A DNA stretch of 64,000 nt from an uncultured Methanosarcinales archaeon. GTDB taxonomy: Archaea > Nanobdellota > Nanobdellia > Woesearchaeales > UBA11576. This document shows, one piece after another, positions 15,906 through 51,400 of this stretch (position 1 is the first letter of the stretch; each line of letters begins with the position of its first letter). A program made the translations under genes and the position numbers. The notes below the pieces were generated by a model, which did no database searches, was not told the origin of the DNA, and saw only the letters and a program-made list of their open reading frames with translations. The stretch covers positions 203,548 to 267,547 of the forward strand of contig CAZLYC010000001.1 in the NCBI GenBank assembly GCA_964563755.1, read 5' to 3'.

Positions 15906-15940
15906 TCCTTTCAAAAATCCAAAAAAGAAGCCGGTGAACA

Positions 15941-35300: not shown

Positions 35301-35793
35301 TCAAATTTCCAACCATGCTCGGTCTTTTCGGATCGGATATATCTATCACTGAAAAACTGTCATCGAAGTAACCTGCAACATAAGCATATCTGCCCCTGAC
35401 ATAAAAGTAATTTGCCCCGTCAAGCAAAGCTTCAGTGCCGCCTTCAGGCGATGAAGTGTCCCTCAAATATGCTATTTCGGTCATGTTTATTCTTGACAGG
35501 TTGATTCCGCGGCTCCCATTCACATCTAAAGAACTCTTCGGTGCAAGCGTTCCTATTCCTGCGAAATCATTTGCTGTGTCTATATACAATGAATCACCTA
35601 TCTTAAGGTTGTCTCCGCCGATGGTGTTTATGTAGTGTGTCTTTGCTGAGACAAACGATGCAAAAATAATGATTGATAACAAGAGAACAAATAACCTTGC
35701 AAAATTCAAAATATCTGAAACATCGCGCTTTGTTTTTCCAAGTCGATCTTTTTGTTGTCTTGTCATTTTAAACTCATTATGGGAGAGCAGCAA
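32371..35793 (-). CDS. Large secreted fibre-like protein with an LVIVD beta-propeller and a C-terminal S74-like intramolecular chaperone domain
   Basis: Signal peptide (likely start at the internal MTRQQ). Seven LVIVD repeats (YAYVA...GLSIIDISNP.NPVEVG). A central Trp/Gly-rich fibre domain. The C-terminus has SSERFKENI...FGYIAEELDALG plus a coiled coil. Confidence 0.7.
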   Translation of the reverse strand: MLLSHNEFKMTRQQKDRLGKTKRDVSDILNFARLFVLLLSIIIFASFVSAKTHYINTIGGDNLKIGDSLYIDTANDFAGIGTLAPKSSLDVNGSRGINLSRINMTEIAYLRDTSSPEGGTEALLDGANYFYVRGRYAYVAGYFDDSFSVIDISDPKRPSMVGNLTHAYLNGAQDVYVAGRFAYVTSWISNRLTIIDISNPSTLRIAGSLYIPLQLSSVYVSSKYAYVTGGYGGTSGGLYIIDVSNPNSPFEVSHINDSEFGGTATTLEGARGVYVSGDFAYVAAYNDAGLSIINISNPANPVEVGYIQDDLNKRLNGPFGVYVSGSYAYVASTSDNAISIVNISNPTNPVEVGNLSDDSTTNIQSPRSIVVSGNYAYLACSTSDSITIIDVSNVTRPRQAGVIKDTESPEGAGSATTLDEVNDIYVSGKYIYATSYSDDGLSIIELTGLESSAANIGSLASSTLDVSDNAQVGNDMYIGNGLFVGPGGVFVDSGNGIASDGNVTILGKVGIQTNTPSNYLDVNGYIDLAGDAPITSTPPYATPSGGWKLGLYANTYAMGISGWTLSFVADGWVSIFSDTLPPANNGNADTPDTNAKIALSVRDGSIHSSKWLDMEDTDGFIDLWDGTDSEIHFGTDPWGGGWDEAYIRYKNDGGGENTELEIGIDNDANQDNLAIYQYGTEVMTIDGQIGIRNTTPDYALSVNGDIYVNGRVDVSGSAGFYIENACAGWNMEDSTWIRMYCEKAIYTGGGVIEVLGNLYVGEADSDRLIVDGSGYVGMGVTNGVPGTRLAVTDGGSSPSNTYIVYADQSNTNTRLPQYSAGTCYAVRGDATETSGTNYGVYGYAVGDDYNHGIVANGTYSRGVNVNDGNIYGYAPYTTTSTVYGRYNTSNYAYGAYSNADGVYAYSNQVAIEGQSSSTAYRSLDVSCQEMVVGSASISFLPADCTGCLYTRYNLEVDGSFYYNPGTTGSGNQQDVRWRSTGYYLVGGALISSERFKENITSLDRDFSRLLDIEPKAFKEKGDTGVELFNITNDDGTGFVEERPGSPESDTKESFGYIAEELDALGLRELVIYDNQSRPDSIHLKYRIPIYVLELLKTQQKDIDLQNVKRIKLVEEQARQQEELSQLRTEIDYLQQKIREI

Positions 35794-38700
35794 GCCTCAC
35801 CTTGATATCTTCTATTTCTTTTTCTAATTCAGACATTTCCTGTTCAGTAACATTGACTAAATTATCAATAATTTTATCAAATGTTTTTAATTCATCAATT
35901 TCATTTTTTCCTGCAGCAATATCCTTATTCTGCTCTTTTAAAACCTCTACCTCGTAAATCGGGAGCTTGTCATATTTTACAGTGTACGGAAGACTTTCAT
36001 TGTCATATTCAACAAGTTTTTCAAGTCCAATCAGATCAACACTTTCCGCTAAATATCCCATATCCCATTCATGCCCTTCTTTGTAGTTAAAGGATATTGG
36101 TTCCATTATCAATACCTTAGAAAAGTCGTCTTCAAAAGGAACAATGTCTTTTTTGTACCTTGCTGATGAACTTGACCTATAGAGATATTGACCTGTTGTT
36201 GCGTAATAGACAGGATACCCGCTGGCGCAACTGTCAGTGTTAAGATATGAAAGATAAAGATACCCGTCAACTTCCAATGAACCGCTTGCATACATATCTC
36301 CATTGTTAGTTATATCTCCAGAATCAGGTGCTCCGGAGTTAGTCACTCTTACATGACCTCCATAGAAATATCCTGCCAAGCCAGCTCCTGCAGAGCTTGT
36401 ATATATTCCATAAGTACTACCTAGAGCAACCATACCTGTTCCACCATTAACATCGTCAGCTAAAAAGAGATAATTCGAACCCTGCTGGAAAATAGCTCCA
36501 CTTCCATATATTGCTCCGCCAAGAACGGCCATCCTAATTGTACCATCACCCAGGTTGTATCCTATGAATCCTGCAGTGGATCCACTACCAAAAACACCAT
36601 AATCTGTCGTGCCTCCTGTCGCATAACCATATATGCCGTATGCAGTTGTTTCTCCTGCAGCATAAGCATTTATGCCTCTATCATAGTACCCGTCATCATA
36701 GCCTGCATGCGCATAACATCCGGCACTGCCTTGAGAATAAAGCGTGTCATTCACCGCTCCTGCTCCATTTATTGCGAGCAAAGCAGTTGGACTAGTAACA
36801 CCACCAATTCCAGTTTTGCCATCGGATTTAACTATGAACCTGCTTCCGCTTGAACCAACATAAAGCTCATTATCTGTGCGTAACTGTCTATCAGTCGTAT
36901 CTCCTCTATGATAGACGTTCTGAACGCTTCCTGTCGTCTGTATCCAGTTAGGGTCAGTCATTATCCATCCGCCGTCATACGTGCTGAACCTGAGAGCATT
37001 AGCTCCTGCAATCCTGAGCCATCCGGGTGTAACGAAAACATTCTCGTTTACATGGAGCGCATAGCCTGCCGTAGGAGACTCAGTGTGCATGCCTACAACG
37101 CCGCTCTGTATCGTCAGCCTGTCAGCGCCTGAATTGTAAAGAGCAATATCATCATCTGCATCATTCGATGTACCTATCTGCAGCTCAGTAGTCTCTCCTC
37201 CTCCATAATTTTTGTAAACTATCCAAGCTTCATCATAACCACCGCCCCAGGGGTCAGTACCAAAATGAATAGTCGATCCAGTTCCATTCCAAAGATCAAT
37301 GTATCCTGTAGGTCTCTCCCTATCGACAAGCTTCCTTGAGAAAATTTTACCGTCCATCTTGAAAGCAACATTCGAGTTTGAGTCAGGCACATTTGCATTA
37401 GCATTGTCTGCAGGAAGAGTGCTGGAATTGAAAATGCTCCACCAGTAGCCATATAACGCAAGAGTATATTCTGCAACTCCTAATGCGTACCCGTTGCTCC
37501 AGAACCCTAACTTCCATCCAACATTTGTGCTTGCCATCGGAGGAGCGGAAGTTATGCTATCGGAACCAGCAGCCTCAATGAAACCGTTCACATCAAGAGT
37601 GTTATTGTGAGTCTGCGTATTGACAGATATGCTGCCCCAAACAGTCATGTTTCCATCTGACGCTATGCCGTTTCCAGCATCAGCATACAATCCGCCAGGA
37701 CCGACAAAAAGACCATTGCCGACATACATATCGTTACCTACTTGAGTATTATCTGAAACATCTAAATTATCCGTCGCAAGGTCACCTATGCTTGCTGCGT
37801 CTGTGCCTATTGATGGCATTGAAAGTACTAAAATCTTTGCGCCAGTGGTTAATATGTAAACATATTTTCCAGAAACCTCTAACTTGCTGTAACTATCAGT
37901 ATCTGGGTGGATGTAACTTCCTATTAATCTAATATTGCTGACATTCGAGATGTCAAACAAATGAATATAACTTGTAAATACCTTGCTGGAAATCACTAAC
38001 GCATATTTTCCATAAACAACAACTTTTTTTGGGTTCTCAAGCAATGCGTTTGAGTATGTGCCAACTAACTGCGGCGAAGAGGGATTAGATATGTTAAGTA
38101 TCGATATGCTGAACTTGTTTGCGGCAGTAACATACGCATACGACCCAGATACATATAAACTATTTGCGCCATCCAGATTGTTAGTATCAGTATAATTTCC
38201 AACATAAACAGGATTCAGCGGATTCGATACATCAATGATTGTAACAAAATCATAATCGTATGAAGAAACATATGCATATCTTCCCTGTACTTTTATGTCT
38301 GAAGCACTCAAACTGTCATACTGCATCGAATTTGCCATCTTTGGATTTGAAGAATTCGAGATATCAATTATATTCAAATAATCATATGTAGGAACATACG
38401 CGTATCTTCCAGACATATATAAACTTCCAGCGCTTGATCCGGAAATAAGCCTGCTATCATTCCGGTATTGACCGACAATACGTGGCGCAGAAGGATTAGA
38501 GATGTCAGTTATGACAAGCTTACCTTCACTGGCGGTAGAAAGAGAATATGCATACTTTCCATGCACCTCAAGTTTTTCAGGATACATCAGTCCAACATCG
38601 AACAGTCTTCCAACTATGTTCACAAAAGCAGGATTAGATATATCCAGGATGTATAGATTAGTATAAACACCGACATAAAGGTACTTTCCTTGTATTGCTG

Positions 38701-39019
38701 TCCCTCTGTGCGCATTAATGTCTGGGAAATATTTTGAAGATACATGCGTCAGGTTGTAAGGAGTGACAATCATCCCCCTGCTGCCGTTGACGTGGAGGTC
38801 TGCTTTTGGCGCAGTGGTCTTTATGCCGACTCTGTTGTTCGTCTCATCTATGAATATGTTGTCATTGCCTATGCTTATGTTGTTGCCGCTTATCGAGTTC
38901 AGGTAATCCGTGCCTGCGATGGCGAATGATGCAAGCAAGATAAGGATTGTCAAACATAATATTAGCGCTTTCGCTCTTGAATCACTTTTTTCCTGTCCGT
39001 GATGCTTTTTTTTATTCAT
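35777..39019 (-). CDS. Large secreted fibre-like protein, LVIVD beta-propeller plus S74-like C-terminal domain (paralogue)
   Basis: Same architecture as 32371..35793. The C-terminus has SSSARYKKDI...MGYLAESVDLIG. Confidence 0.7.
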   Translation of the reverse strand: MNKKKHHGQEKSDSRAKALILCLTILILLASFAIAGTDYLNSISGNNISIGNDNIFIDETNNRVGIKTTAPKADLHVNGSRGMIVTPYNLTHVSSKYFPDINAHRGTAIQGKYLYVGVYTNLYILDISNPAFVNIVGRLFDVGLMYPEKLEVHGKYAYSLSTASEGKLVITDISNPSAPRIVGQYRNDSRLISGSSAGSLYMSGRYAYVPTYDYLNIIDISNSSNPKMANSMQYDSLSASDIKVQGRYAYVSSYDYDFVTIIDVSNPLNPVYVGNYTDTNNLDGANSLYVSGSYAYVTAANKFSISILNISNPSSPQLVGTYSNALLENPKKVVVYGKYALVISSKVFTSYIHLFDISNVSNIRLIGSYIHPDTDSYSKLEVSGKYVYILTTGAKILVLSMPSIGTDAASIGDLATDNLDVSDNTQVGNDMYVGNGLFVGPGGLYADAGNGIASDGNMTVWGSISVNTQTHNNTLDVNGFIEAAGSDSITSAPPMASTNVGWKLGFWSNGYALGVAEYTLALYGYWWSIFNSSTLPADNANANVPDSNSNVAFKMDGKIFSRKLVDRERPTGYIDLWNGTGSTIHFGTDPWGGGYDEAWIVYKNYGGGETTELQIGTSNDADDDIALYNSGADRLTIQSGVVGMHTESPTAGYALHVNENVFVTPGWLRIAGANALRFSTYDGGWIMTDPNWIQTTGSVQNVYHRGDTTDRQLRTDNELYVGSSGSRFIVKSDGKTGIGGVTSPTALLAINGAGAVNDTLYSQGSAGCYAHAGYDDGYYDRGINAYAAGETTAYGIYGYATGGTTDYGVFGSGSTAGFIGYNLGDGTIRMAVLGGAIYGSGAIFQQGSNYLFLADDVNGGTGMVALGSTYGIYTSSAGAGLAGYFYGGHVRVTNSGAPDSGDITNNGDMYASGSLEVDGYLYLSYLNTDSCASGYPVYYATTGQYLYRSSSSARYKKDIVPFEDDFSKVLIMEPISFNYKEGHEWDMGYLAESVDLIGLEKLVEYDNESLPYTVKYDKLPIYEVEVLKEQNKDIAAGKNEIDELKTFDKIIDNLVNVTEQEMSELEKEIEDIKVRLAALP

Positions 39020-39021: not shown

Positions 39022-42000
39022 TTAATTTTTAAAAGCGAGTTTTGTCTCTATTTCTGCAAACTGTATCTTAAGCTCGACTAATTTTTCATTCATATAATCA
39101 ATAGCTTCCTGACGCTCCCTAACCCCAGATTCAAGATCAATTATCTGTATGTTCATCTCATCCAGTTCTTTCTTGTTGATTTTAATCATCTCTACGATGT
39201 ATATGGGTATATGCTCATAAGAAACATCCTCTGGGGAGTTGTTAAGGTATCTCACAAGATTTTTTATTCCTAACGCATCAATTTCCTCTGCGATGTAACC
39301 GAAATCACTGATATTTGAATTAATTCTGGTGAACGCTTTAGGCTCAAGCTTCAGAATCTTTGAAAAATCATCTTCGAAAGGATGTATATCTTCTTTATAT
39401 CTTTCAGATGAAGTAAATCTACAGAGTTTTGATACTCCATTCCAGTAAACTAGATAATCTGCTGCGTTGATATATGTCTGAAGATTATCCAGATATACAG
39501 TACCATCAACTTCAAAATCATTGTAGACGTAAAGATCTCCGCTGAGAGTCATATTATTCATAGTGCCCGCACTTCCAATTTTAACTGGATCTCCTGTAAA
39601 ATATGCTCCATATGTATTTCCGCATGCGTCTACAGCGATACCTGAGTCAGTATAACCTTTAGCACCCCATCCTGGCCCGCCAAGCGCACCCCAATCTCCT
39701 CCATCTGTACCATATGCTCCGTAATCCCCGCCGAGATACCCATATCTTGTAGCGCAATTGTTTGCATCGCAGCCATAGATGCCATAATCTCCATAACCAT
39801 ACACCCCATAGTCATTTGCACCCATGGACACTACACCTTGATTCTGTACTCCAGTACCACTTGTTGCGCTTCCATACGCTCCTATGTTAGAACTACCATC
39901 CCTATATGCAAGCAAAGCGTCATTGTCCTGAAGCCCCATAGCAGACACCATCGCTGCAGAGTTTCCGCTTTCACGTATGCTGAGCCGTGAAGCAGGAGTT
40001 GTAGTCAGTATACCTGTATATCCTCCTAAAGAAGTCGCTTTAACAATAAACTTGTCACCATTAGGACCTACCTGCAGCTCATGGTCCGTCATCAGAGTAC
40101 CGCCGACCCTTACATTCTTACCACCATAAGAGTAAAGCCAGTAGCCATCAGGCGTGTACCATCCGCCCCCGTAGTTTTCCCAGTAAACCCCGCTTGGATA
40201 ATTGACCCTGACCCAATTGTTCGCAAGCATGTTTCCTTGCACCTGAAGATTATAGCTTCCTGGATTAGTATCATAAATGCCGACTCTACCGTTCCTTATC
40301 GTCATAACTTCAGCGCCCTGCTGGACAAATGAAATCTTGTCGTCAGCATCATTAGATATACCAATCTGCAATTCAGTGTCTTCACCAGAGCCATCCTGCA
40401 GATAAGTTATCCAGGCAGCATCACCACTCCCTCCCCAGGGGTCGTCTCCCATCAGTATGCTGGAGTCAGTCCCATCCCACAAATCAATAGTGCTATTATC
40501 ATTCACGCCATCTTGATATATGCTTTTGTCATACCACTTTGAGGCACGCACTTCGCCGCTGTCTACACTCATGGCAGCCTCTGCATTCGAATCAGGAGTT
40601 GTACCGTCAGCATTATTCAAAGGTGGAGAATAGAACCAGTCAACCCACGTATTTGTCATAATTGCAAGAGTCCAAGAAGCTATTCCTATTGCGTATGTGT
40701 TCGAGTAAAGCCCTATTTTCCAGCCAACATCATAATCCACAGTTGGAGGAAGAGCAGTTATAGGATGCACATTAGCATTCGCTCCTACAAAACCATTGAC
40801 AGTCAATGCATTTGTGGGTTCAGTGTTTATTCCTAGGTTACCATGAACTATCAGGTTGCCGTCAGTCGTCACACCTTTGCCTTCATCAACATAAACTCCG
40901 CCAGGACCAACATACATGCCGTTACCAACATAAAGATCATTTGATATCTCTAAATTTCCGGAGACATCAAGATTGTTCGAAGCAACATCACCTATGCTCG
41001 CAGCAGCCAGTTCAACACCGCCATGCTCAAATACTGCAAATGTGTTTGAAGTACCACTACCAACTAAGTAAAGGTATTTACCCACACCATATAGTCCATA
41101 AGCCTGGTCAATATACCCGCTGTTAGCATAAGTTCCGACAATGACCGGATTAGTGACATTAGATACATCTATTACTGCTATGCTGTCGCCGTCATAGCTC
41201 GACACATAAGCGAAACCTCCTGCGACATAGATGCCATTCGCACCGTTCAGGTTTGTAGAATCAGACAAAGTGCTGACCCTTTGCATATTAAACGGGTTAG
41301 AGATGTTAACTATAGTCAAGCTGTCATCATAATAATCAGCAACATACGCGTACTTTCCTGAAACATAGACATCATAAGCACCATTGAGATTGTCACCATC
41401 ACAGATGCTATTGACATAGTTGATATTTGAAGCATTGCTTATATTGATTATTGCAAGACAGTCGCTGGCATATGAAGCAATATAAGCGAAAGTTCCCTGC
41501 ACATAAAGTCCAGATGCATCATTTATGTATGTGGCGCTCTGATAGCTCGATACAAATGTAGGATTTGAAGAGTTAGATATATCAATGACTGTGAATCTGT
41601 CAGATGTCGCACCAGAAGTAACATACGCATATTTTCCAGATACATAGACGCTGTTTGCAGCATCAAGATAAGTGCCGCTAGTATAATAACCAGTGACCGA
41701 TGGAGAGTATGGATTAGAGACATCAGCAATAGTCAGCATGTCATCAGCTGCAGCAGTTATGTAAGCATACTTTCCAGCAACAAATATGCCACTAGCAGCA
41801 TCAAACCTGTCTGTGTTATATAGGCTGCTTACCAGCGTAGGACTGTATGGATTGGAAACATCCATTATCGTCAATCTATCACCGGTAAAAACAGCGACAT
41901 AAGCATATTTGCCCTGTACATAGACATCATAAGGACCTGCCATATATGTCCCACTAGTGTATCTGCCGACCAGGACGGGCGTGGATGAATCTACTTTTAT

Positions 42001-42204
42001 GCTGCTACCGTTGATATCTAAATCAACACGAGGCACCTTAGTCTTGAAGCCCACCCTATCATTAGTATCATCAACCCACATCAAATCATCACCGAAACTG
42101 AGGTTAGCGCCATCCTGATGCTTGATGTAATGAGTGCCTACAGCAAGAGCTACATCTACAAGAAGTACTATGATTATAATTGAAACAATCCACCTCATTT
42201 TCAT
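39022..42204 (-). CDS. Large secreted fibre-like protein, LVIVD beta-propeller plus S74-like C-terminal domain (paralogue)
   Basis: Same architecture as 32371..35793. The C-terminus has TSSERYKEDI...FGYIAEEIDALG. Confidence 0.7.
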   Translation of the reverse strand: MKMRWIVSIIIIVLLVDVALAVGTHYIKHQDGANLSFGDDLMWVDDTNDRVGFKTKVPRVDLDINGSSIKVDSSTPVLVGRYTSGTYMAGPYDVYVQGKYAYVAVFTGDRLTIMDVSNPYSPTLVSSLYNTDRFDAASGIFVAGKYAYITAAADDMLTIADVSNPYSPSVTGYYTSGTYLDAANSVYVSGKYAYVTSGATSDRFTVIDISNSSNPTFVSSYQSATYINDASGLYVQGTFAYIASYASDCLAIINISNASNINYVNSICDGDNLNGAYDVYVSGKYAYVADYYDDSLTIVNISNPFNMQRVSTLSDSTNLNGANGIYVAGGFAYVSSYDGDSIAVIDVSNVTNPVIVGTYANSGYIDQAYGLYGVGKYLYLVGSGTSNTFAVFEHGGVELAAASIGDVASNNLDVSGNLEISNDLYVGNGMYVGPGGVYVDEGKGVTTDGNLIVHGNLGINTEPTNALTVNGFVGANANVHPITALPPTVDYDVGWKIGLYSNTYAIGIASWTLAIMTNTWVDWFYSPPLNNADGTTPDSNAEAAMSVDSGEVRASKWYDKSIYQDGVNDNSTIDLWDGTDSSILMGDDPWGGSGDAAWITYLQDGSGEDTELQIGISNDADDKISFVQQGAEVMTIRNGRVGIYDTNPGSYNLQVQGNMLANNWVRVNYPSGVYWENYGGGWYTPDGYWLYSYGGKNVRVGGTLMTDHELQVGPNGDKFIVKATSLGGYTGILTTTPASRLSIRESGNSAAMVSAMGLQDNDALLAYRDGSSNIGAYGSATSGTGVQNQGVVSMGANDYGVYGYGDYGIYGCDANNCATRYGYLGGDYGAYGTDGGDWGALGGPGWGAKGYTDSGIAVDACGNTYGAYFTGDPVKIGSAGTMNNMTLSGDLYVYNDFEVDGTVYLDNLQTYINAADYLVYWNGVSKLCRFTSSERYKEDIHPFEDDFSKILKLEPKAFTRINSNISDFGYIAEEIDALGIKNLVRYLNNSPEDVSYEHIPIYIVEMIKINKKELDEMNIQIIDLESGVRERQEAIDYMNEKLVELKIQFAEIETKLAFKN

Positions 42205-44345
42205 TAACCCAGACTGACCAACACTTTTATTTCACAAGAATCATTATTACAATCCTCCATCGCCTTACCTACGATGGAGCCGAAATCATCCTTTGTCGCT
42301 TTCTCTGCAAAGCCTTTGACTGTTGAACTTGTGAGCATGTCAAACTTAGCTACTGGACCTTTGACTTTCGTGCTGACAATGCCAGTTATACCGACAGCGA
42401 CGCCATCATTTGCAGCGTTACCGATTATTGTAGGACTGTCTGACACGACGCCAGCAACAGACGGCTGCCTATGAGAAGAACATTTCACGACTTTCATGTC
42501 ATCATTCAAGCATACGACATCACCTGCTTCCAATGCTTCCGCAGCAGGCATCATCTCTGCGAAGTCTGCGCCGTAGCCGGTGAGGTTGCCGCCGTAGTAG
42601 ATGTTCCTAGTAACATAAAGATCCCCATTCTGCGTTATGTTCACCATCGGCGTGTTGCTTCCGGCATTCCTCCTTATGAACATCAACGGAACGCTGCCAT
42701 CACCGAAATCAGTGACATTAACATACCATCCCCAAGAGTTAGTATTCCCTCCTAAAAACATAGCATTATTAGACCCTATATCCAGTCTGGCAATCGGAGC
42801 AGTCGTCCCGATGCCGACATTGCCGGAACCGTCAATATTTAATACATCTCTAGGAGTCATTGAAGAACTATATTGTCTTAAATGAATCATTCCGTAAACT
42901 CCAGCGCCGCCGCCAGTGTAGACCGAACCAAAATAAGCGTCAGAACTTGACTGACCATATCCCATAAAAGCATACTGACCTTGCGAATCAGGCCTATTTA
43001 CACGAACACCATTCTCATAAACATTAGCATTTCCAGGCCTTATAACATCAAGAGCAGAGTAAGGAATCGAAGTCCCGATGCCGACATTGCCTGCGCTGCT
43101 TATCCTCATACGTTCTCCGTATGTGCCTGTGTTATTGGTTGTTGAGAATGCTAATGCTATAGCACCAGATGAATATTGATTTCTTCCAGTAATCGCCGCA
43201 CCAATCAATCCATCCGAAGCTTCAAATGCTATGCTTGACCCATCATCTGGTGTGGTGTACTTATGATTTGATAAAACAATAAGGGGATTTATGATTCCTG
43301 TTGTTCCAGTGTCATCGTTACGCACTTCAAGCTTATAGCTAGGACTTGTGGTGTTGATGCCGACATTGCCGCCTGTGTTGAAGTAGCTGTTGGCACCGGA
43401 GTCTCCTGTGATACGTGTCCTTGCAGTAATAGAAGGATAATCCCCCATATTTGCAAGAGTCATATCCCCAAGGCTGATAGCATAATCAACATTAAGCTCA
43501 GCACCATTACCATTACTCATCAAGAACATAGTGGGATATGTCATACCTGTGGCAGAATTAGTATGCATAAAAGCAGGACCATAACCAGTACCATCGTCCC
43601 TATAATGCCAGAATCCTTTATACGGATAAACATTCTGTCTGAGTGAGGCACCACTTCCTGTAGAATTAAATGCAATATCTCCTGAACCAACATCTAATCT
43701 CGCATTAGGATTTGTTGTCCCGATGCCGACGTTGCCTGTTGAGGATATTCTCATATTCTCGCTGCTGCCTGTGCCTAAAATAAGATCAGGCGAACCATAA
43801 ATCCCGTTCCATGCAGGAACGCCAAGAGTCAAATTTATGGATTGACCGTATCTTGCAATTAAAGAACCTGCAATACGTGTCTGACCACCAGGTCCAGTTA
43901 TGTTCGTGCTATAGAAATCACCATTCACAGTCAATTTCTGGCCAGGAGTGTCTGTTCCGATGCCGACGTTTCCTCCTGATGCCTGAATGCTAAGATTAAC
44001 ATTATTGCTCACGCCTATCTGTGTGGCCTGAATACGAGCAGAAGTATCGCCGTCAATCACTCCTAAGTTGATTCCGTAACCAGAACTCAGGTCTCCTACG
44101 TGCATCTGATAATTTGCGACAACATCTTTTTGTACTTGTAAACTATAGGATGCGGTTGGAGTACCAATACCAACATTAACAGTATCTGGAAACAAGAAAT
44201 TCCCGTCGTTGCCACTGAACAATCCGCCGCTTATCTGTGAAGCAGGATGGCCCGGGTTAGGAGCTGTTGAGAATGCTCCGTATGATAAACCTATGAGTAC
44301 TACAATATATAGTAAGATTGCAGACCTCTTTTTAACAAGACTCAT
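42204..44345 (-). CDS. Secreted fibre protein with NVGIGT-type tandem repeats and a peptidase-G2-like C-terminal intramolecular chaperone domain
   Basis: Signal peptide. At least six repeats of N(V/I)GIGTxxPxxxL(D/E)V. The C-terminus GADFAEMM...GDVVCLNDDMKVVKC...VAGVVSDSPTIIGNA resembles the GADYAE...ILGVVS motif family of phi29 gp12-type auto-chaperones. Confidence 0.55.
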   Translation of the reverse strand: MSLVKKRSAILLYIVVLIGLSYGAFSTAPNPGHPASQISGGLFSGNDGNFLFPDTVNVGIGTPTASYSLQVQKDVVANYQMHVGDLSSGYGINLGVIDGDTSARIQATQIGVSNNVNLSIQASGGNVGIGTDTPGQKLTVNGDFYSTNITGPGGQTRIAGSLIARYGQSINLTLGVPAWNGIYGSPDLILGTGSSENMRISSTGNVGIGTTNPNARLDVGSGDIAFNSTGSGASLRQNVYPYKGFWHYRDDGTGYGPAFMHTNSATGMTYPTMFLMSNGNGAELNVDYAISLGDMTLANMGDYPSITARTRITGDSGANSYFNTGGNVGINTTSPSYKLEVRNDDTGTTGIINPLIVLSNHKYTTPDDGSSIAFEASDGLIGAAITGRNQYSSGAIALAFSTTNNTGTYGERMRISSAGNVGIGTSIPYSALDVIRPGNANVYENGVRVNRPDSQGQYAFMGYGQSSSDAYFGSVYTGGGAGVYGMIHLRQYSSSMTPRDVLNIDGSGNVGIGTTAPIARLDIGSNNAMFLGGNTNSWGWYVNVTDFGDGSVPLMFIRRNAGSNTPMVNITQNGDLYVTRNIYYGGNLTGYGADFAEMMPAAEALEAGDVVCLNDDMKVVKCSSHRQPSVAGVVSDSPTIIGNAANDGVAVGITGIVSTKVKGPVAKFDMLTSSTVKGFAEKATKDDFGSIVGKAMEDCNNDSCEIKVLVSLG

Positions 44346-44521
44346 CTTTTTGCACCTTGCTCTACTGCTGGCTCTAACGTCAACTCTTTTAGAACAACTT
44401 CCCCTCTCTCATTCAGCGTCGGAAAAATCTCAGTACCCTTCCTCCAACGCTTCATCTTTATTATGCCTAAAGGTAAAGTTATGTTGAACTGGCCTTCCTT
44501 AGGATTCTGAATCTTTACCAT
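44342..44521 (-). CDS. AbrB/MazE-like (swapped-hairpin) small DNA-binding protein, 59 aa, absent from the ORF track
   Basis: Hand translation gives MVKIQNPKEGQFNITLPLGIIKMKRWRKGTEIFPTLNERGEVVLKELTLEPAVEQGAKR. Its TGA stop overlaps the ATG of the fibre gene (ATGA). Confidence 0.5.
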   Translation of the reverse strand: MVKIQNPKEGQFNITLPLGIIKMKRWRKGTEIFPTLNERGEVVLKELTLEPAVEQGAKR

Positions 44522-45031
44522 TCAATCACACTATTATTATATTAGTATTAAAAATTATCTAAATTAATATTATCATAATAATTTTAATTATTAAAATACT
44601 ATTAAAATAGTATTTAAGTATTATTATATAAAAAGCTTTTGTTTTTGCTTTGTGAAATCTTGTTCATTTCCTTCTTTACAGGATTTTTCTGTTTTGGGTA
44701 TTACCTGTTGTCAAATATTCTGAGTCTGCTAAACTATTAAGTTATTCTCGACGATACAAAAATATTTTTCCGTCGATAAAATTTGCAAATTATTTTTTAG
44801 CTGATATTTTTTGAAAAATTTCGCTTGTTTCTCTACGGATTTTTTTATTTTCAAGCGAACTTCACAAAACGGCTTTTCTTACTTGGGATCTTATGTTTTA
44901 GCCGTTGAACTTCTCGATCGCTGAGATTTTTTCCAAAATTAAGTTATTTTTAATATTATTTTATTACTATATAAATATTACTTTTAGTTTAAGATAATAT
45001 TATTATAATATTACATTTTTCTCGATTTTTA

Positions 45032-45204
45032 CTTACGTTGTAGGTATAAAATTGCTTATTTTCGAAATACATACATTGTAAGAAAAAGACTTACGTTGTA
45101 AGTTTTATGGAAAAGTTTATATATAAATGCTACTTACAGTGTGAGAATTTACTTGTTCTGAAAAAAACCAAAAGGTTTAAATACACCTATACTCACATTG
45201 TAAG
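45032..45204. promoter_or_regulatory. Five copies of the 13-bp palindrome CTYAC-N3-GTRAG upstream of the HTH and giant-protein genes
   Basis: Copies are CTTACGTTGTAGG (45032), aTACATTGTAAG (45071), CTTACGTTGTAAG (45090), CTTACAGTGTGAG (45133) and CTCACATTGTAAG (45193). Confidence 0.6.
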
Positions 45205-45249
45205 TAAATTTTTGAATATATTACAATATTTTATTTAAGTTATTCGCGG

Positions 45250-45480
45250 GTGTTTGGTATAGTTTCAAAAGAGGACGAAGTAGTAGAGATACCTAGTGCA
45301 ATATTCAGAGATAGAACTAGGGCCCCCCTCGAATCAATTTCTCAGTATCTTAAAGACGTGAAAGGCCTATCTTTCCACGAGATAGCAGTACTTCTAAACC
45401 GCGATGACCGAACAATCTGGACCTGCTACAGCAGAGCGAAAAAGAAACAGCAACAGCAGAATGAGGTGGTCAAGGAATAA
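45250..45480 (+). CDS. Small HTH protein (sigma-70 region-4/LuxR-like helix-turn-helix), GTG start
   Basis: LSFHEIAVLLNRDDRTIWTCYSRAKKK fits the r4-type HTH pattern (E.IA..L...D.T....RA.KK). Its stop overlaps the start of the giant ORF (TAATG). Confidence 0.4.
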   Translation: MFGIVSKEDEVVEIPSAIFRDRTRAPLESISQYLKDVKGLSFHEIAVLLNRDDRTIWTCYSRAKKKQQQQNEVVKE

Positions 45481-48400
45481 TGGCCACAGAAGACAGGATC
45501 AAGGAACTGCAGAGTCAGATAGCAGGACTTGATAGAGAGATTGAGCAAGAGAAAAAAGCAGAACAGAAGATAGCGCAGGAAATAGCAAGAAATGCAGAAA
45601 AAGAAAGAACCGCATCAACACAGAGAACAAACCAAGAAGCAAACAAAGAAAAATCATCAACAAGCATGGTGACATCAGTTGTCGTAATATCTCTCATACT
45701 CATACTCTCCGCGATACTTGTTCTTAAGACTCTAAGTCCTACGGGCTACTCAGTTCTTGCGCAAAACCAAACACCCACAGAACTGCTCCAGGTAGAGCAA
45801 CAGATGCTTGAAGACATGAACGTAGAAGAAGTCATAGCAATCCAAGAGGCAACAGAAAAGAACTACACAGAACCAATCAACGAGACACTGCCGGAAGAGC
45901 CGCAGAATGAGATCATAGAAGAACCAATACCTCAACTTCCAGAGCAGCAGGAGCAGAACGCAACACTGAATGAGACTGCGTCAGAAACAAACACAACAAT
46001 AAACGAGACAATGGCGCCAGTCAACGCGTCAGTCCCTGTTGTAAACGAGACAGTGAACATAACAAACGTGACACTCTACAACGAGACACAGCAAATCAAC
46101 ATAACTCTCAATGAGACAAACATAACAGATGAATTCAATATAACCCTGAACTTAACACTCAATGAAACCAACTTCACAGCAGAACTCAACATAACACTGA
46201 ACGAAACAAACCTCACAGAGCAGCTTAACATAACATTCAACGAGACTAACCTGACATCAGAGCTTAATGCCACACTTAACATAACTAACGAAACAGCAAT
46301 CATATCGGAAGAAAATCTGACAACAGAGACAGGATTACCAGAAGAGCTAATCCAGGGATACGCAAGAGTCGGTCAAGCAGTCAACTGGACAAGAAGAATA
46401 CTGGTCAACACAACAGGGGAGCTCAACATAACACTCAAGCTGCCGAAGCAGACATCAAAAGTAAAGATTTATGAGATAACTGGAGGAGTAGATCCAGCAC
46501 TGGTTGAAGAAGAAGGCCAGACAGAGATATCAGGAAGCACAGTTCTAAACGCTAGACAATGGTCAGACTGGCACGCAAAGATAGGCAAGACAAAGAAACT
46601 CCTCAAATCAGACAAGATAGGCATCAATAATCCTGTTCTTTTGACTCAGCAGTTAGAGGAATCAACAGATTCTGAAACCGACAGCCAAACACCCGCAATA
46701 ATTGGCTATTCTGCATTGAATGTAGAGTCCGGTGAAGGGGTCATGCTGAAATTCCTCAACTGGTTGAGTTCTTTATTCGGAATAACTGGCGCAGCGACAT
46801 TGGATACCGAATCGATACGCCTGACGAGACCGGATGACGGCGCAACAGTCGATAGGAACCTAAACCTGCTATACAGAGCAGCAAAAGACTTTGACTCCTG
46901 CACACTCTACCTTGACGAAAACAAGGTAAAGACAGACGAACTTGTGCTTGAAGGACTCAATTTCTTCCAGCTAAGTAGGATGAGTGATGGAATACACGAC
47001 TGGAAGATAGTCTGCCTCGACAAAAACCGAGAAGTCGAATCAGAGACAAGGACATTCACAGTAGGAACAACAACCATACCAACACCTATACAGCCAATAA
47101 TACCAATCCAGAACGAGACAACACCAGAGCAGAACACAACCCTGCCTGAGAATGAGAGTGTAGAACAGATAGAAGAAGAGACAGAAGAAGCAGAATACAA
47201 CTTTGTCGAAATAAACATAACAGACACAGTTGACGAAGCTCCAAAAGTCTATGAAATCGAGTACCAGACAGCAGGACCAGAGGCATCTGAGCAAGTGCAG
47301 AACCAGTACATAAAGGCAGTAACTGTAGGAAGCGACATAGAATTCAAGAATATAACTGCATACACAGAGCTGCCATGGGTGCCAGAGTGGCTAGTCAAAC
47401 TCTACTGGAGCAACAAAGGTTACGAACAAGTTGAAGATATCAAGCTTATAGACGCAAACCAAGACGGACTTTACGATGCGATGGAATGGACAGTCCCGCA
47501 CCTCTCGAACCAGACCTATGAAGTCAACCTCACTTATGAGATAACGCAGATAAACATAACACACGCAGAAAGGACACCAGAGAACGGAATAAAAGAGGAC
47601 ATAACAGGATATGTAGCAGATGCTGACGGCTCATCAATACAAGTAAACACAAAAGAAATCTATTTCGAGCTCCAGACTGACCTAGCAGAAAACGATACGA
47701 TATCATTCTTTGCAGAAGCTAACAAGAGAAACACGATATTCCTGAAAGATATGGATGGAAATATCATAAGCACACTCACACTAAGCGACAAGAACTGGTC
47801 ATGGTATAACATGACGATAACAGGACTAAGCCTTACGACAAACAAGTTCTACCTAAGTTCAGAATCGCTAGTCAAGTATGACTACATAACAGCATTCGAC
47901 AAGAAGCTCATAATACCAAAGAAGATGGTCGCGCCAAAGAACGTAAGCCTGGTGCTCGCGCAGGATGAAACAGTAGATGTAACCGAAATCAGACAGTTCA
48001 AGCCAGCAGAAGTGATTGTGCAGTCAACCACAGATCAGAACCAGACAGTCCCGATAGCAGAGTTCAGCGTAGAATTCCAGAGCGCAGAACTTGACATAGA
48101 CATGTCAGGACTTGTCGCAGAGACAGACCCTGTCGAAAGGAAATCAGTCATGCACATGGATGAATGGCCTGCAGAAATAAGCCACAACAAGACACTCTAC
48201 ATACCATCACACGGAAGAGGCTCGGTCTATATCTGCCCAGAAGCAAAGAACATAGATGAAGTCAACCAGTTCTGCCCAGGAATAGTGTACTTGAAGCTTG
48301 GAGAGAACAAGATAAACAAGACACAGGAACAGGCACTGCTTCAGATAGAGACAAACGAAACGCTCAACGAAACAATAAATGAGACAAACGGTACAGAGAT

Positions 48401-51400
48401 ACTGAACGAGACAACAGAGCTTAATGAGACGACAGAGCTCAACATGACTTCAAATGAGACAATCCTGGAGATTAATCAGACAATTGAGCAAGATATCAAT
48501 ATCACTGAAAATGTCACAACAGAATTCAACACGACAGAACAGGCAAGCAACGAAACAGCCTATAACGGCACAACAATAATTGTCACAGAAGTTGAAATCA
48601 ACGGCGTCATGTTCTACAAAGTATCCGGACTCACAGGCACAGGAGGCGGAGAGACAATAGAGGTGCTGAACATACACAGCTATCCTATCCTCGGAGGAGT
48701 CTGGACAGTAGACTTCATAACAAAAGGCACAGCGAACCTGACAATAACACCAATAGAGAATACCAGCTGGTCAGAGATGGACACAGACAACATCTTCACG
48801 GCAAACGACCTTGAATTCCTAGAGCTGAGCTGCGGAGAGGAGTCACTAAAAGACAACATCATAGCGATGACAGAGAACGGCACAGCGTTCGATTACGATG
48901 AACTTGCGAACAGCACAGTCAACGTGACGGCAATCATTATCCAGAACTACTCATGCAACCTGACAGGACACCTGAGCAACAAGGAACTCTTATCAGGACA
49001 TCACGCATTCTTCTTCCAGTTTGGAGAAGCGAACGCAACAGCATACAACTATGTCGCAACACTAAGTTGCAGAGTAGCAGCCGCATGTGAATACACAGAG
49101 GTATTAAGACTATCATCAATCACGAACGCCCACGTTGAACTCAGTAACTTCTCAAACTACGAGTACAGTATCTGCTGCAGGGACCTCGGAGGACAGAAGC
49201 TAAGGAACAACTGCTCTGACCCTAGAAATGTCACTATACTGAAAGCATCAGCAGAGACAAACGCCCACGTAGAGAAGATAACCCAGTCTAACTACAATGT
49301 GCCTGTATGCCTCAGTCATGAGAATCGCGACTTGAACATGACATGCGGATATGACAGCGTGAACAACTGCTCAGGATGGCAGGCCTGCGTAGCATCCATC
49401 AGCTCAACAGAGAGAGGAATGGATACAAACCTTGAAGTTGCAGAGTGCGGCTCGCCAAACAATTACACCACAAAGATATGCTGCAATATAGGCACAAACC
49501 AGACAGGACCCTCTCTGCCACCAGCACAGCCTAACCAGACAGGATGCGTAGGACCACATGACGACTTCACGCCTATAGACAACGTTACGCTATGCGCAGG
49601 AACATACTATACCAATGACGCAGCAGGAGACGGACTCATAAAAGTTGGAAGCAATAATGTCACACTGAACTGCAACGGAACCGTAATGGTAGGAAACGGA
49701 GCAGGAATAGGAATATACTCGAATTACAACGTGACGATAAATGGATGTGATGTAAGGAATTATGGGAAAGGAGTTGAGGTAAAAGGCTCCGATTTCCTCA
49801 ACGTAACTCTCAGCTGGAATTCAACAGGTGTGGATATCATTGATGGAATGGCTATAGACTCAGAAAATAATCTTGCTATAGCAGGAAGATGGTTGAACGG
49901 CAGCCAGAATGATTGGGGAATAGCCAGATACTATCCGAATGGAACACAGATTTGGAATAGATCTCTTGTATGGAATGCGACAGCTAGCGATCTGTTAATG
50001 GATATGACATATGATTCTGCAGGCAATCTGATTTCAGTCGGTTGGTGGTTTAACAACAGTTTTTATAGATGGGCCATAGCAAAATATGACTCTTCAGGCA
50101 ATCTATTATTCACCAGCTCTCCAATCTTCAATATCACAAAAAATGAAACCGCAACTGCAGTAGCAACGGATACCCTGAACAACATAATCGTTGTAGGAAG
50201 AAAAGAGTTACGTTCATGGTCTGAGTGGCAGATAGTCAAGTACAACTCAACCGGAAGCTTAATCTGGAATATAACACCTTTATGGAATAATGATTATGGA
50301 AATTTTCTGTATTCTGTAACTACCGATTCCCTTAACAACATAATTGTAGCTGGTGCATGTGTTTGGCCAGCCAAACAAAATTGGTGTGCTGCTAAATATT
50401 ACTCCAATGGAACACAAATATGGAACAGAACTTTCGTCTGGAATGCGACAGGTAGTCAGGAGTACGCAAAAGACGTCGTCATAGATTCAAATGACAATGT
50501 AATACTTGCTGGCAGATGGAGTAATAATGGTAATTATGACTGGAGCGTTATAAAACTCACATCTGACGGAACACAACTATGGAACAAATCATTAAAATGG
50601 GGGGACAGCGTAGATAGCGCTGAAAGCGTGGCTGTAGATTCTAATGATAATATACTTATTGCAGGAAACTGGCGAAGCGGAAGCAATAACGTGTGGGGTG
50701 TTGCAAAATATTATCCTAATGGCACACAAATAACCAACAGAAGTCTATTCTCAGGAAGCAATTCACTAACATATGCTAATGAAGTCGTTGTCGATTCGTC
50801 AGATAATATCATAGTCGCCGGTTCATGGGATAATGGCGGAGGAGACTGGAATTTTATGAAATTAACCCCTGACTTGACCGCTTCAGCATTCACACCCCGA
50901 GTGATATTGAACAATTCGTACATCAGGAATGCAGAAACAGGAGTGACTCTTGATGGAACTTCAAATTCACGAATAACCAACACAACCATAACTGGCACAA
51001 CAACCGGCCTCTACATGTCAGCAGCGAATGGCACAGTGATAACTAATCTTACAGTCTACAATAATACAAACGACATTTATGTTGATGGAACTGCTTCATC
51101 ATTTACGTATAATGCAACAAACATAACATTCGACTCTCCTGCAGGAACACTGCAGAATTACAGCAGATTAACAATATCTGATACTGTAGATGACTCAACA
51201 GCATACTCTTTATCTTGGGCATACATGTCATGGACACCTGTAAAGAGGAAGTCATTCGCACAGAAATTCATAGACCTGACTGCAGAAACAGGAATGCCGA
51301 ACATAGATTCAATGACATGGTACTGGCTCGATTCAGAACTCCCGACATATGATGAACTCAGGTTCCAGGTCTGGCAATTCGACCCAGTATATAGAGGAGG

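What the first reader, a model, noticed from the sequence alone, without database searches (positions are those of the whole stretch)
42204..44345. A fourth fibre protein carries a different auto-chaperone class (peptidase G2-like, phi29 gp12 type) plus NVGIGT repeats
The C-terminus GADFAEMM-x-GDVVCLNDDMKVVKC-x-VAGVVSDSPTIIGNA parallels the GADYAEYFEW...GYFVTLDGDKIRKA...ILGVVSANPSVVGDS segment that I recall as the intramolecular-chaperone region of Bacillus phage pre-neck appendage and tailspike proteins. Upstream are at least six repeats of N(V/I)GIGTxxPxxxL(D/E)V. The same repeat occurs once near the N-terminus of each of the three LVIVD proteins, suggesting a shared anchoring or trimerisation module. 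Two distinct phage-type chaperone classes in one gene array is striking.
Basis: partly seen in the sequence, partly recalled or inferred. Interest (0 to 1): 0.75.

Follow-up and report, generated by a model that had tools for sequence, protein, structure and literature searches.

The report
Archaeal surface fibre with phage-type self-chaperone
This gene from a tiny symbiotic-type (Woesearchaeota) archaeon encodes a secreted fibre protein built like the prey-grabbing fibres of Bdellovibrio and ending in a small self-folding, probably self-cleaving domain of the kind first seen in phage phi29; the reading is correct, but the design is a common one, so it is a new member of a known kind.

Summary
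ORF 42204..44345 (-) encodes a 713-aa protein. It has an N-terminal signal or anchor segment, then five canonical and one degenerate N-V-G-I-G-T-x-x-P-x-x-x-L-(D/E)-V motifs.

A profile of the repeat modules matches crystal structures of Bdellovibrio 'mosaic adhesive trimer' (MAT) fibres (E = 5e-32), so the motif is their capping loop.

The genome is a Woesearchaeota (DPANN) archaeon, not a phage. The gene heads a tight four-gene array whose other three members are LVIVD-repeat proteins ending in S74 chaperones. All four share one N-terminal module.

The compact G2-like terminus is very common: about 30,000 clusters at 50% identity, always C-terminal, and usually on capping-loop fibres.

Verdict: a real cell-surface fibre and a new archaeal member of a known kind. 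Cleavage, trimer state and an adhesive role are inferred, not shown. Interest is moderate.

The parts
42204..44345 (-). Whole gene (here called F4), 713 aa plus stop. It is the first of four tightly packed fibre genes in the direction of transcription.
   Evidence: ORF list. An identical protein is on record from a 303-kb NCBI contig. The stop overlaps the next gene's ATG (TAATG).
44268..44345 (-). N-terminal signal peptide or membrane anchor, aa 1-26: basic MSLVKKRS followed by a hydrophobic stretch at aa 9-24.
   Evidence: It is the only hydrophobic segment of the protein (15-aa Kyte-Doolittle mean up to 2.31). AF2 places a helix at aa 10-20. The same layout is seen in the three neighbours. 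No dedicated signal-peptide predictor was available.
44127..44267 (-). N-terminal module shared with the three LVIVD proteins, aa 27-73, including the degenerate first capping-loop motif (aa 57-71).
   Evidence: Alignment A2 of the four N-termini has invariant G40, G45, D47, G59, T62 and L69. HMM hit at aa 57-71.
42567..44177 (-). Fibre shaft, aa 57-593: six modules of about 70-120 aa, each opened by a capping-loop motif. The last 70 aa (524-593) are a Trp/aromatic-rich stretch that would be the distal tip after cleavage.
   Evidence: PHROG tail-fibre families at 5e-22 and 2e-20. PDB 8OND at 1e-6 with the single sequence. Module profile A4 against the PDB: 8OND 5e-32, 8OML 1.5e-19, 8OJN 3.8e-14, 8ON4, 8OL4.
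43926..43970 (-). Capping-loop repeat 1, NVGIGTDTPGQKLTV (aa 126-140).
43689..43733 (-). Capping-loop repeat 2, NVGIGTTNPNARLDV (aa 205-219).
43323..43367 (-). Capping-loop repeat 3, NVGINTTSPSYKLEV (aa 327-341).
43044..43088 (-). Capping-loop repeat 4, NVGIGTSIPYSALDV (aa 420-434). It opens a module (aa 413-543) that is 59-75% identical to modules in proteins of other organisms.
42777..42821 (-). Capping-loop repeat 5, NVGIGTTAPIARLDI (aa 509-523).
42555..42566 (-). D594-F-A-E597, the predicted autocleavage and catalytic motif. The predicted scissile bond is A593|D594.
   Evidence: D, A and E are invariant in 18 of 18 aligned homologues and in 147 of 147 top family representatives. The motif aligns with D692-F-A-E695 of phi29 gp12, where the cleaved fragment 3GQH starts at that Asp and PDB entry 3SUC carries Q in place of that Glu.
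42207..42566 (-). Compact G2-like C-terminal autochaperone domain, aa 594-713: all-beta, ten strands.
39022..42204 (-). Neighbour LV3, 1060 aa: signal, shared N-module, LVIVD beta-propeller repeats, capping loops, Peptidase_S74.
   Evidence: Pfam LVIVD 1e-38; S74 at 24.9 bits, above the 22-bit cut-off..
35777..39019 (-). Neighbour LV2, 1080 aa, same architecture.
   Evidence: Pfam LVIVD 3e-38; S74 at 25.6 bits.
32371..35793 (-). Neighbour LV1, 1140 aa, same architecture. Its S74 domain carries an insertion and is missed by Pfam.
   Evidence: Pfam LVIVD 9e-44. The C-terminus is 34.5% identical to that of LV3 (E = 3e-24) and has the SSERFKENI motif.
44342..44521 (-). 59-aa ORF whose stop overlaps the F4 start (ATGA). 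It may be the first cistron of the array. Function unknown.
   Evidence: No Pfam family.

Best explanation
F4 is a secreted, cell-surface fibre protein of a Woesearchaeota (DPANN) archaeon. It belongs to the same superfamily as the Bdellovibrio 'mosaic adhesive trimer' (MAT) fibres and related phage tail fibres.

Proposed mechanism:
1. The Sec-type N-terminus takes the chain across the membrane.
2. Outside the cell, three chains are brought into register from the C-terminal end by the 120-aa double beta-tulip domain, a compact homologue of domain D4 of phi29 gp12 (MEROPS G2 / Pfam Peptidase_G2). This domain acts as an intramolecular chaperone for the intertwined beta-helical shaft.
3. The shaft is built from six modules, each opened by an NVGIGTxxPxxxL(D/E)V capping loop.
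4. After trimerisation the domain cuts itself off at A593|D594 using D594 and E597. That leaves the Trp-rich segment aa 524-593 as the distal tip.
5. The fibre stays on the cell through its N-terminal end, which it shares with the three downstream LVIVD-propeller fibres. Those three mature through S74 chaperones instead. The array therefore yields several fibres with one common base and different tips, most plausibly for binding other cells or surfaces.

Shown here: the gene, the motifs, homology of the shaft to solved MAT fibres, fold and motif homology of the C-terminal domain to gp12 D4, the archaeal cellular context, and the shared N-module.

Inferred: the trimer state, actual cleavage, how the fibre is anchored, and the adhesive role.
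For: C-terminal domain:
- AF2 model at pLDDT 89.8.
- The family profile A1 hits gp12 entries 3GQH and 6QZ9 (E = 0.006 and 0.01), with D-x-A-E on D692-x-x-E695.
- Mature gp12* ends at residue 691 (PMC6542822). D4 is described as a tandem beta-tulip autochaperone (bioRxiv 10.1101/216911).
- D, A and E are invariant in 18/18 and 147/147 relatives.
- PF11962 is hit by 15/18 relatives.
- The domain is always at the extreme C-terminus in the 150 best of about 30,000 clusters.

Shaft:
- Module profile against the PDB gives only Bdellovibrio MAT fibres: 8OND 5e-32, 8OML 1.5e-19, 8OJN 3.8e-14, 8ON4 1.4e-9, 8OL4 4e-8.
- The MAT paper defines the capping loop and the S74 and non-S74 subfamilies (PMC10769870).

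Cellular and extracellular context:
- Archaeal L3, L4 and SecY are in the same window. SecY is 85-88% identical to Ca. Woesearchaeota.
- There is one N-terminal hydrophobic segment. Composition is G/N/S/T-rich and K/E-poor. There are 1.4 N-x-S/T sequons per 100 aa, against 0-0.4 in cytoplasmic proteins of the window.
- No phage families were found in the neighbours.

Array:
- Start and stop codons overlap or nearly abut, and the N-module is shared.
- Similar tandem arrays of signal-peptide fibres occur in bacteria (L001, L002).
Against: - F4 fails Pfam's own threshold for Peptidase_G2: no hit on the whole protein, and 18.7 bits against a 25-bit cut-off on the isolated domain.
- The domain is 120 aa against 163 aa in gp12. 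About 45 gp12 residues between the two aligned blocks have no counterpart.
- In phi29, from my memory of Xiang et al. 2009 (paper not held), release of the cleaved domain needs ATP. ATP would be absent outside the cell.
- The full-length monomer model is poor in the shaft (pLDDT < 50), so beta-helical geometry rests on homology only.
- Nothing here shows expression, trimerisation, cleavage or binding.
- If the signal peptide is removed, the means of retention on the cell is unknown.
Confidence: 0.62

Rival explanations
1. [quoted passage not shown] It stays on the fibre as its trimeric distal knob, serving as a trimerisation or receptor-binding tip, in the way related beta-tulip proteins sit as stable trimers on phage capsids.
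Against: D-x-A-E sits at the exact domain boundary. It is invariant in 18/18 and 147/147 relatives and aligns with the gp12 cleavage site. A purely structural knob would not need it. Peptidase_G2 is the best-supported Pfam family, hit by 15/18 relatives.
Confidence: 0.2
2. The four genes are tail-fibre genes of an integrated archaeal virus, a tailocin or a contractile injection system, not proteins of the cell surface.
For: PHROG tail-fibre families match the shaft. BFVD phage proteins, including Campylobacter phage tail fibre and Agrobacterium phage Atu_ph07, share the C-terminal domain. S74 and G2 chaperones were first described in phages.
Against: All four proteins carry N-terminal signal or anchor segments, which virion fibres normally lack. 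No capsid, portal, terminase, sheath, tube or baseplate family was found in the ten neighbours tested. The flanks hold ABC-transporter genes, a ribosomal-protein/SecY cluster and a giant lectin-domain protein. There were no close relatives in IMG/VR or GenBank phages. Solved homologues are cellular MAT fibres.
Confidence: 0.06
3. The fibre is a structural element of the archaeal envelope or matrix, for example spacing, sheath or biofilm scaffolding. On this reading the tip diversity of the array is incidental and the fibre is not an adhesin that recognises partner cells.
For: No binding data exist. F4's tip is small (70 aa) and has no recognisable lectin fold. LVIVD proteins are common archaeal surface proteins of unknown role.
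Against: The only characterised homologues are adhesive, surface-displayed fibres (PMC10769870). The array pairs one common N-module with varied distal parts, and individual shaft modules are shared across organisms. That is the pattern of recognition proteins. It sits next to a giant Laminin_G_3 lectin-domain protein.
Confidence: 0.12

Closest known systems
Bdellovibrio bacteriovorus MAT (mosaic adhesive trimer) fibres, e.g. Bd2133 (PDB 8OND), 8OML, 8OJN, and Bd3182 (S74 type); Caulton et al. 2024, PMC10769870
   Same: Signal peptide, then a long shaft of beta-helix modules each marked by the capping-loop motif (Bd2133 has GNLGLGTAAPTSALHV and GNVGIGATAPTAKLEV). Module-level sequence homology at 5e-32. 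Several paralogues per genome with swapped tips. Some members end in an autoproteolytic chaperone.
   Different: The host is an archaeon with no outer membrane. The terminal chaperone is G2-like, whereas the paper describes only S74 and non-chaperone tips. The N-terminal common module is about 45 aa, against the ~130-aa beta-rich domain reported for MATs. F4 is shorter (713 aa against ~1000 aa). The genes lie in one tight array.
Bacillus phage phi29 pre-neck appendage protein gp12, domain D4 (residues 692-854; PDB 3GQH, 3GQK, 3SUC; MEROPS G2; Pfam PF11962)
   Different: 120 aa instead of 163, with a ~45-aa insertion absent. Below the Pfam cut-off. The upstream shaft is unrelated to gp12's pectate-lyase-like beta-helix. 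It folds after secretion rather than in the cytoplasm, so an ATP-dependent release step is unlikely to apply.
The compact G2-like C-terminal domain family found in metagenomes (about 30,000 clusters at 50% identity; some NCBI records are named 'peptidase G2 autoproteolytic cleavage domain-containing protein', e.g. P0109 from a Pyrinomonadaceae bacterium)
   Same: Same domain, same C-terminal position, same D-x-A-E motif, and usually preceded by capping-loop fibres (143 of 147 top members). Tandem arrays of signal-peptide fibres occur (L002).
   Different: F4 is a divergent outlier. It is 33-42% identical to the nearest domains. It measures 120 aa from the Asp to the end, against 134 aa in the main group. 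P1 is Ala, not Gln. It has four Cys. A 70-aa tip segment is inserted between the last capping loop and the domain.
Peptidase_S74 intramolecular chaperone (K1F endosialidase, T5 pb1, MyRF)
   Same: Same logic: a C-terminal, self-cleaving trimerisation chaperone on capping-loop beta-helical fibres. It is present in the three neighbouring genes.
   Different: Unrelated fold and catalytic motif (Ser/Lys against Asp/Glu). F4 shows no S74 similarity.
Phage capsid cement/decoration beta-tulip proteins (HFTV1 capsid stabilisation protein 8QSY, XM1 gp53, phi29 gp8.5 base)
   Different: They are free-standing capsid proteins with no fibre upstream and no D-x-A-E boundary motif. Not a membership candidate.

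Membership tests
Peptidase_G2 / phi29 gp12-type C-terminal autochaperone (Pfam PF11962, MEROPS G2) | Match to PF11962 at or above Pfam's gathering score | tested here: not met
   The whole protein gives no hit at E <= 1. The isolated 131-aa C-terminus gives E = 1.3e-3 and 18.7 bits against a 25-bit cut-off, covering profile positions 49-101 of 228. 15 of 18 homologous domains hit PF11962 at E <= 0.1, best 1.7e-6.
Peptidase_G2 / phi29 gp12-type C-terminal autochaperone (Pfam PF11962, MEROPS G2) | Fold of gp12 domain D4 (tandem beta-tulip) | tested here: met
Peptidase_G2 / phi29 gp12-type C-terminal autochaperone (Pfam PF11962, MEROPS G2) | Asp and Glu of the D-x-x-E motif at the cleavage boundary (gp12 D692, E695) | tested here: met
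   D594-F-A-E597 aligns with D692-F-A-E695. The cleaved fragment 3GQH starts at that Asp, and 3SUC carries Q at the Glu position. The motif is invariant in relatives. That these two residues are catalytic is from my memory of Xiang et al. 2009 and MEROPS, not read here.
Peptidase_G2 / phi29 gp12-type C-terminal autochaperone (Pfam PF11962, MEROPS G2) | Position at the extreme C-terminus of a trimeric fibre or spike | tested here: met
   The domain ends at the stop codon. All 150 best family representatives have it at their C-terminus. The trimer state itself was not tested.
Peptidase_G2 / phi29 gp12-type C-terminal autochaperone (Pfam PF11962, MEROPS G2) | Full-length D4 including the region between the two aligned blocks (163 aa) | tested here: not met
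   F4's domain is 120 aa. gp12 D4 residues ~53-98 have no counterpart in the profile alignment. This is a compact variant.
Peptidase_G2 / phi29 gp12-type C-terminal autochaperone (Pfam PF11962, MEROPS G2) | Autocleavage after trimerisation and release of the domain | not testable with these tools
   Needs protein expression, SDS-PAGE or mass spectrometry, and D594/E597 mutants.
MAT (mosaic adhesive trimer) fibre superfamily | Repeated capping-loop motif (published as V-G-G/N-pi-x-x-P-x-x-x-L) | tested here: met
   Five canonical copies and one degenerate copy. They align residue by residue with the Bd2133 and 8OML motifs. Motif definition is in PMC10769870.
MAT (mosaic adhesive trimer) fibre superfamily | Sequence homology of shaft modules to solved MAT beta-helix domains | tested here: met
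   Profile A4: 8OND 5.1e-32, 8OML 1.5e-19, 8OJN 3.8e-14, 8ON4 1.4e-9, 8OL4 4e-8. No other PDB entries reach E <= 0.01.
MAT (mosaic adhesive trimer) fibre superfamily | N-terminal signal peptide | tested here: met
   A basic n-region plus a 16-aa hydrophobic stretch, with no other hydrophobic segment. This is by inspection only. Whether it is cleaved or acts as an anchor is not resolved.
MAT (mosaic adhesive trimer) fibre superfamily | Conserved ~130-aa beta-rich domain directly after the signal peptide | not tested
   No Bdellovibrio N-terminal sequences were available, because the PDB entries cover C-terminal parts only. F4 shares a ~45-aa N-module with its three neighbours.
MAT (mosaic adhesive trimer) fibre superfamily | Intertwined homotrimer; surface display; adhesion | not testable with these tools
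   Only monomer prediction was available. In that model the shaft has pLDDT < 50 while the hairpins at the motifs reach 65-78, which is uninformative for an obligate trimer.
Peptidase_S74 chaperone (for the three neighbouring genes) | PF13884 at or above the gathering score, with an S-x-x-x-x-K motif | tested here: met
   LV3 scores 24.9 bits and LV2 25.6 bits, against a 22-bit cut-off. LV1 is missed by Pfam but is homologous (E = 3e-24) and has SSERFKENI. F4 itself has no S74 similarity.

The most novel reading that the evidence does not exclude
A DPANN (Woesearchaeota) archaeon builds, from one operon, a set of MAT-like trimeric fibres. They share one N-terminal docking module but carry different distal parts: a small Trp-rich tip on F4 and LVIVD propellers on the other three. 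They mature through two unrelated self-cleaving chaperones. Together with the adjacent giant lectin-domain protein, the cell uses them to find and hold its host cell. This would be an archaeal counterpart of the Bdellovibrio prey-recognition repertoire. It would also be the first case of a G2-type autochaperone acting outside the cell without ATP.
Probability: 0.3. Interest if true: 0.6.

Novelty: new member of a known kind. Interest (0 to 1): 0.4.

Why it matters
Most DPANN archaea are thought to live attached to other cells, yet the molecules that make first contact are mostly unknown. This locus gives a concrete, testable candidate. It is an operon of four secreted fibres homologous to the experimentally characterised adhesive fibres of a bacterial predator, and it lies next to a giant lectin-rich protein.

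It also extends the G2-type self-cleaving chaperone to an archaeal cell-surface protein, on a shaft type (MAT) for which the paper read here (PMC10769870) describes only S74 or chaperone-free ends. In that setting, after Sec export, the ATP-dependent release described for phage phi29 cannot apply as such.

For annotation, two practical points follow:
- Pfam PF11962 misses this compact variant at its cut-off.
- Some sources name these fibres 'trimeric autotransporter adhesin', a name the homology found here (MAT-type fibres) does not support.

The design itself is very common in metagenomes, so the value lies in context and testability, not in a new principle.

Tried and rejected
- Full-length AF2 monomer with a 30-sequence alignment. 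Mean pLDDT was 55.9, and the shaft was below 50. I treat this as uninformative for an obligate trimer, not as evidence of disorder.
- The search for related loci with alignment A1 failed because no stretch was conserved enough.
- The single-protein scan of genome contigs found only a Verrucomicrobiota locus, so the source contig is not in that collection.
- Scans of viral contigs with F4 and with a main-group G2-like domain found nothing.
- tblastn of the C-terminal domain against GenBank phages gave no match.
- An exact look-up of the protein's contig found nothing on record, and the cluster has a single unnamed member.
- A word-indexed homologue search with the C-terminal domain alone gave only 3 weak hits.
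- The afdb50 fold library was unavailable.
- Xiang et al. 2009 (PMC2692858) is not held. The catalytic roles of D692 and E695 and the ATP-dependent release therefore rest on memory plus indirect evidence.
- tRNA and Rfam scans of the window found nothing.
- The sigma-70 promoter and terminator scan was at chance level and is not appropriate for an archaeon.
- The 59-aa upstream ORF looked AbrB/SpoVT-like by eye, but Pfam gives no support, so I dropped that label.
- I considered and rejected a prophage origin, membership of the capsid-cement family (context and motif), and recent cross-domain gene transfer of module 5. For the last, DNA identity is only 74% over 182 nt, between sequences with GC of about 44% and 65%.


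Full report
**1. What is in the sequence**

The interval 42204..44345 holds one minus-strand ORF of 713 aa with an ATG start. An identical protein is on record from a 303-kb NCBI contig, unnamed and alone in its 90% cluster. The plus-strand ORFs inside the interval are short shadows.

The protein starts with MSLVKKRS followed by a 16-residue hydrophobic stretch, its only hydrophobic segment. It is rich in Gly, Asn, Ser and Thr and poor in Lys and Glu. It has 1.4 N-x-S/T sequons per 100 aa, against 0-0.4 in the ribosomal, SecY, radical-SAM and ABC-ATPase proteins of the same window. This fits a secreted archaeal protein.

**2. The repeats**

Five canonical copies of NVGI(G/N)TxxPxxxL(D/E/T)(V/I) lie at aa 126, 205, 327, 420 and 509. 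A degenerate copy lies at aa 57. Spacings are 69-122 aa.

The single sequence already matches Bd2133 of Bdellovibrio (PDB 8OND, E = 1e-6) on these motifs. PHROG tail-fibre families match the shaft at 5e-22 and 2e-20.

A profile of one module plus 24 homologous modules (alignment A4) finds five PDB sequences at E <= 0.01, all Bdellovibrio MAT fibres: 8OND 5.1e-32, 8OML 1.5e-19, 8OJN 3.8e-14, 8ON4 1.4e-9 and 8OL4 4e-8.

The MAT paper (PMC10769870) describes these proteins as surface-displayed, intertwined trimeric beta-helix fibres. They carry a recurring 'capping loop' motif and fall into S74-terminated and non-S74 subfamilies. The NVGIGT repeat is that capping loop, and each copy opens one shaft module.

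The full-length AF2 monomer model is poor in the shaft (pLDDT < 50). Only small hairpins at the motifs reach 65-78. I treat this as uninformative for an obligate trimer.

**3. The C-terminal domain**

Pfam finds nothing on the whole protein. On the isolated last 131 aa it finds Peptidase_G2 at E = 1.3e-3 and 18.7 bits, below the 25-bit cut-off, covering profile positions 49-101 of 228.

Seventeen other proteins from the homologue search carry the same domain at their extreme C-terminus, at 31-40% identity. In their alignment (A1) D14, A16 and E17, the D-x-A-E motif, are invariant. Fifteen of the 18 hit PF11962, best E = 1.7e-6.

The A1 profile finds phi29 gp12 in the PDB (3GQH at 0.006, 6QZ9 at 0.01). 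The motif aligns with D692-F-A-E695. The crystallised cleaved fragment 3GQH begins at that Asp, and entry 3SUC has Gln in place of the Glu. Mature gp12* ends at residue 691 (PMC6542822).

In BFVD, the closest viral models at TM 0.85-0.91 are uncultured tailed phages and Agrobacterium phage Atu_ph07; Campylobacter phage proteins, one annotated as tail fibre, follow at TM 0.70-0.79.

F4's domain is compact: 120 aa against 163. About 45 gp12 residues between the two aligned blocks have no counterpart.

**4. How common the domain is**

An exhaustive profile search of 1.84 billion representatives finds 29,997 proteins at E <= 1e-3 and 23,667 at E <= 1e-10. In all 150 listed, the domain is at the C-terminus.

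Among the top 147, all have Q|D-x-A-E and exactly 134 aa from the Asp to the end. 143 of them carry at least one capping-loop motif. NCBI already names one such protein 'peptidase G2 autoproteolytic cleavage domain-containing protein' (P0109).

F4 is a divergent member. A word-indexed search with its domain alone finds only three weak relatives. It also has a 70-aa Trp-rich segment between the last capping loop and the domain, which the main group lacks.

**5. Context**

The window encodes archaeal-type L3, L4 and SecY and a PriL-like protein. SecY is 85-88% identical to proteins named Candidatus Woesearchaeota. The organism is therefore a DPANN archaeon.

Downstream of F4 on the same strand, with a 1-nt overlap (TAATG), a 2-nt gap and then a 17-nt overlap, lie three paralogous proteins of 1060-1140 aa. 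They are 36-38% identical to each other. Each carries LVIVD repeats and capping loops, and all three end in Peptidase_S74.

All four proteins share the signal segment and a ~45-aa module that contains the first capping loop. Ten proteins of the neighbourhood (nine neighbours and LV3) show no virion families in PHROGs. Nearby genes encode MacB/FtsX-type ABC transporter parts.

Upstream and divergent lies an ORF of at least 6173 aa with many Laminin_G_3 domains.

Relatives of F4 sit in cellular contexts too:
- next to TFIIB, Pelota and ProRS genes in a Woesearchaeota contig (L003);
- in a tandem array of four signal-peptide fibres with the same compact domain, beside an RHS toxin (L002);
- in a four-gene fibre array in a Verrucomicrobiota MAG (L001).

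**6. Mechanism**

The best-supported reading is a Sec-exported chain. Three copies are registered from the C-terminal end by the double beta-tulip domain, allowing the intertwined shaft to fold. The domain then cuts at A593|D594 through D594 and E597 and leaves, exposing aa 524-593 as the tip. The fibre remains on the cell by its N-terminal end, which it shares with the three LVIVD fibres.

Homology of both parts, the motif, the position and the cellular context are shown. The trimer state, cleavage, anchoring and binding role are inferred.

The main rival is that the domain is retained as a knob. The fold does not exclude this, but the invariant boundary motif argues against it. A phage or tailocin origin is unlikely because of the signal peptides and the neighbourhood.

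One real difference from phi29 is topology. gp12 folds in the cytoplasm and, as I recall from Xiang et al. 2009 (not held), needs ATP to release D4. This protein folds outside the cell.

**7. Comparison, novelty and score**

F4 works like a MAT fibre with a gp12-type chaperone.
- It meets the fold, motif and position criteria of the G2 family. It fails the Pfam cut-off and lacks part of D4, so I call it a compact G2-like variant of a very large, already partly annotated family.
- It meets the motif, homology and signal-peptide criteria of MAT fibres. The conserved MAT N-domain and the trimer state were not testable.

I found no paper in the held library linking MAT-type fibres, or G2 or S74 chaperones, to DPANN archaea. 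The MAT paper does not mention archaea.

This is therefore a new archaeal member of a known kind. It is useful as a candidate host-contact apparatus and not surprising in principle. Interest 0.4.

Noticed in passing
window 45480..63998 (+), running off the window end: A giant ORF of at least 6173 aa, divergent from the fibre array. Its first 4000 aa carry at least six Laminin_G_3 (concanavalin-like lectin) domains (E = 2.5e-150), plus Laminin_G_2, Pentaxin and DUF5122 matches. It has 275 N-x-S/T sequons (4.45 per 100 aa). It is probably a giant surface adhesin of the kind seen in small-genome symbionts.
   Followed up: partly
window 45031..45205 and 31468..31482: The palindromic motif TTACAAYGTAAGT is clustered at five sites in the AT-rich divergent region between the fibre array and the giant gene. 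One more palindromic site lies just past the other end of the fibre cluster. There are 11 matches in the window against 2.9 expected, and none of 100 shuffles reaches 11. It looks like an operator array for a shared regulator.
   Followed up: partly
window 45250..45480 (+): A 76-aa ORF with a helix-turn-helix resembling Sigma70_r4_2 (E = 3e-5, 24.0 bits, just under the 25.7-bit cut-off). It ends where the giant gene starts and is a candidate regulator.
   Followed up: partly
window 44342..44521 (-): A 59-aa ORF whose stop overlaps the F4 start codon (ATGA). It may be the first cistron of the array. No Pfam family was found, and an AbrB-like impression by eye was not supported.
   Followed up: partly
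window 42717..43109 (-), F4 aa 413-543; L001 9509..11146: One shaft module (PGNANVYENGVRVNRPDSQGQYAFMGYGQSS...) is 59-75% identical to modules in proteins of other organisms, including a 65%-GC Verrucomicrobiota MAG. The rest of the proteins are ~28% identical. DNA identity is only 74% over 182 nt. This is a widely shared, strongly conserved module subtype of unknown role, found in both archaeal and bacterial proteins.
   Followed up: partly
L002 445..5653: A metagenomic contig with four tandem genes for short (401-466 aa) signal-peptide fibres. Each ends in the compact G2-like domain (E = 1e-62 to 1e-67 against the A1 profile). They are followed by an RHS/YD-shell protein with Peptidase_M23.
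   Followed up: partly
window 42207..42566 (-), F4 aa 612, 622, 699, 704: All four cysteines of F4 lie in the C-terminal domain, as two close pairs (C612/C622 and C699/C704). P0060 and P0102 also have a Cys pair at the C-terminal position, and P0102 at the first; the main-group sequences lack cysteines there. These may be disulfides, in keeping with folding outside the cell.
   Followed up: no
window 32371..35793 (-): The third LVIVD protein has an insertion of roughly 30 aa inside its S74 domain (…KEKGDTGVELFNITNDDGTGFVEERPGSPESDTKES…), and Pfam misses the domain. Its listed TTG start overlaps the upstream gene by 17 nt, so the true start may be further in.
   Followed up: partly
window 4000..16000 (+): A very strong AT skew (0.40-0.50) runs across the ribosomal-protein to SecY region. 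It coincides with Lys-rich proteins (11-13% Lys) encoded on the plus strand.
   Followed up: no
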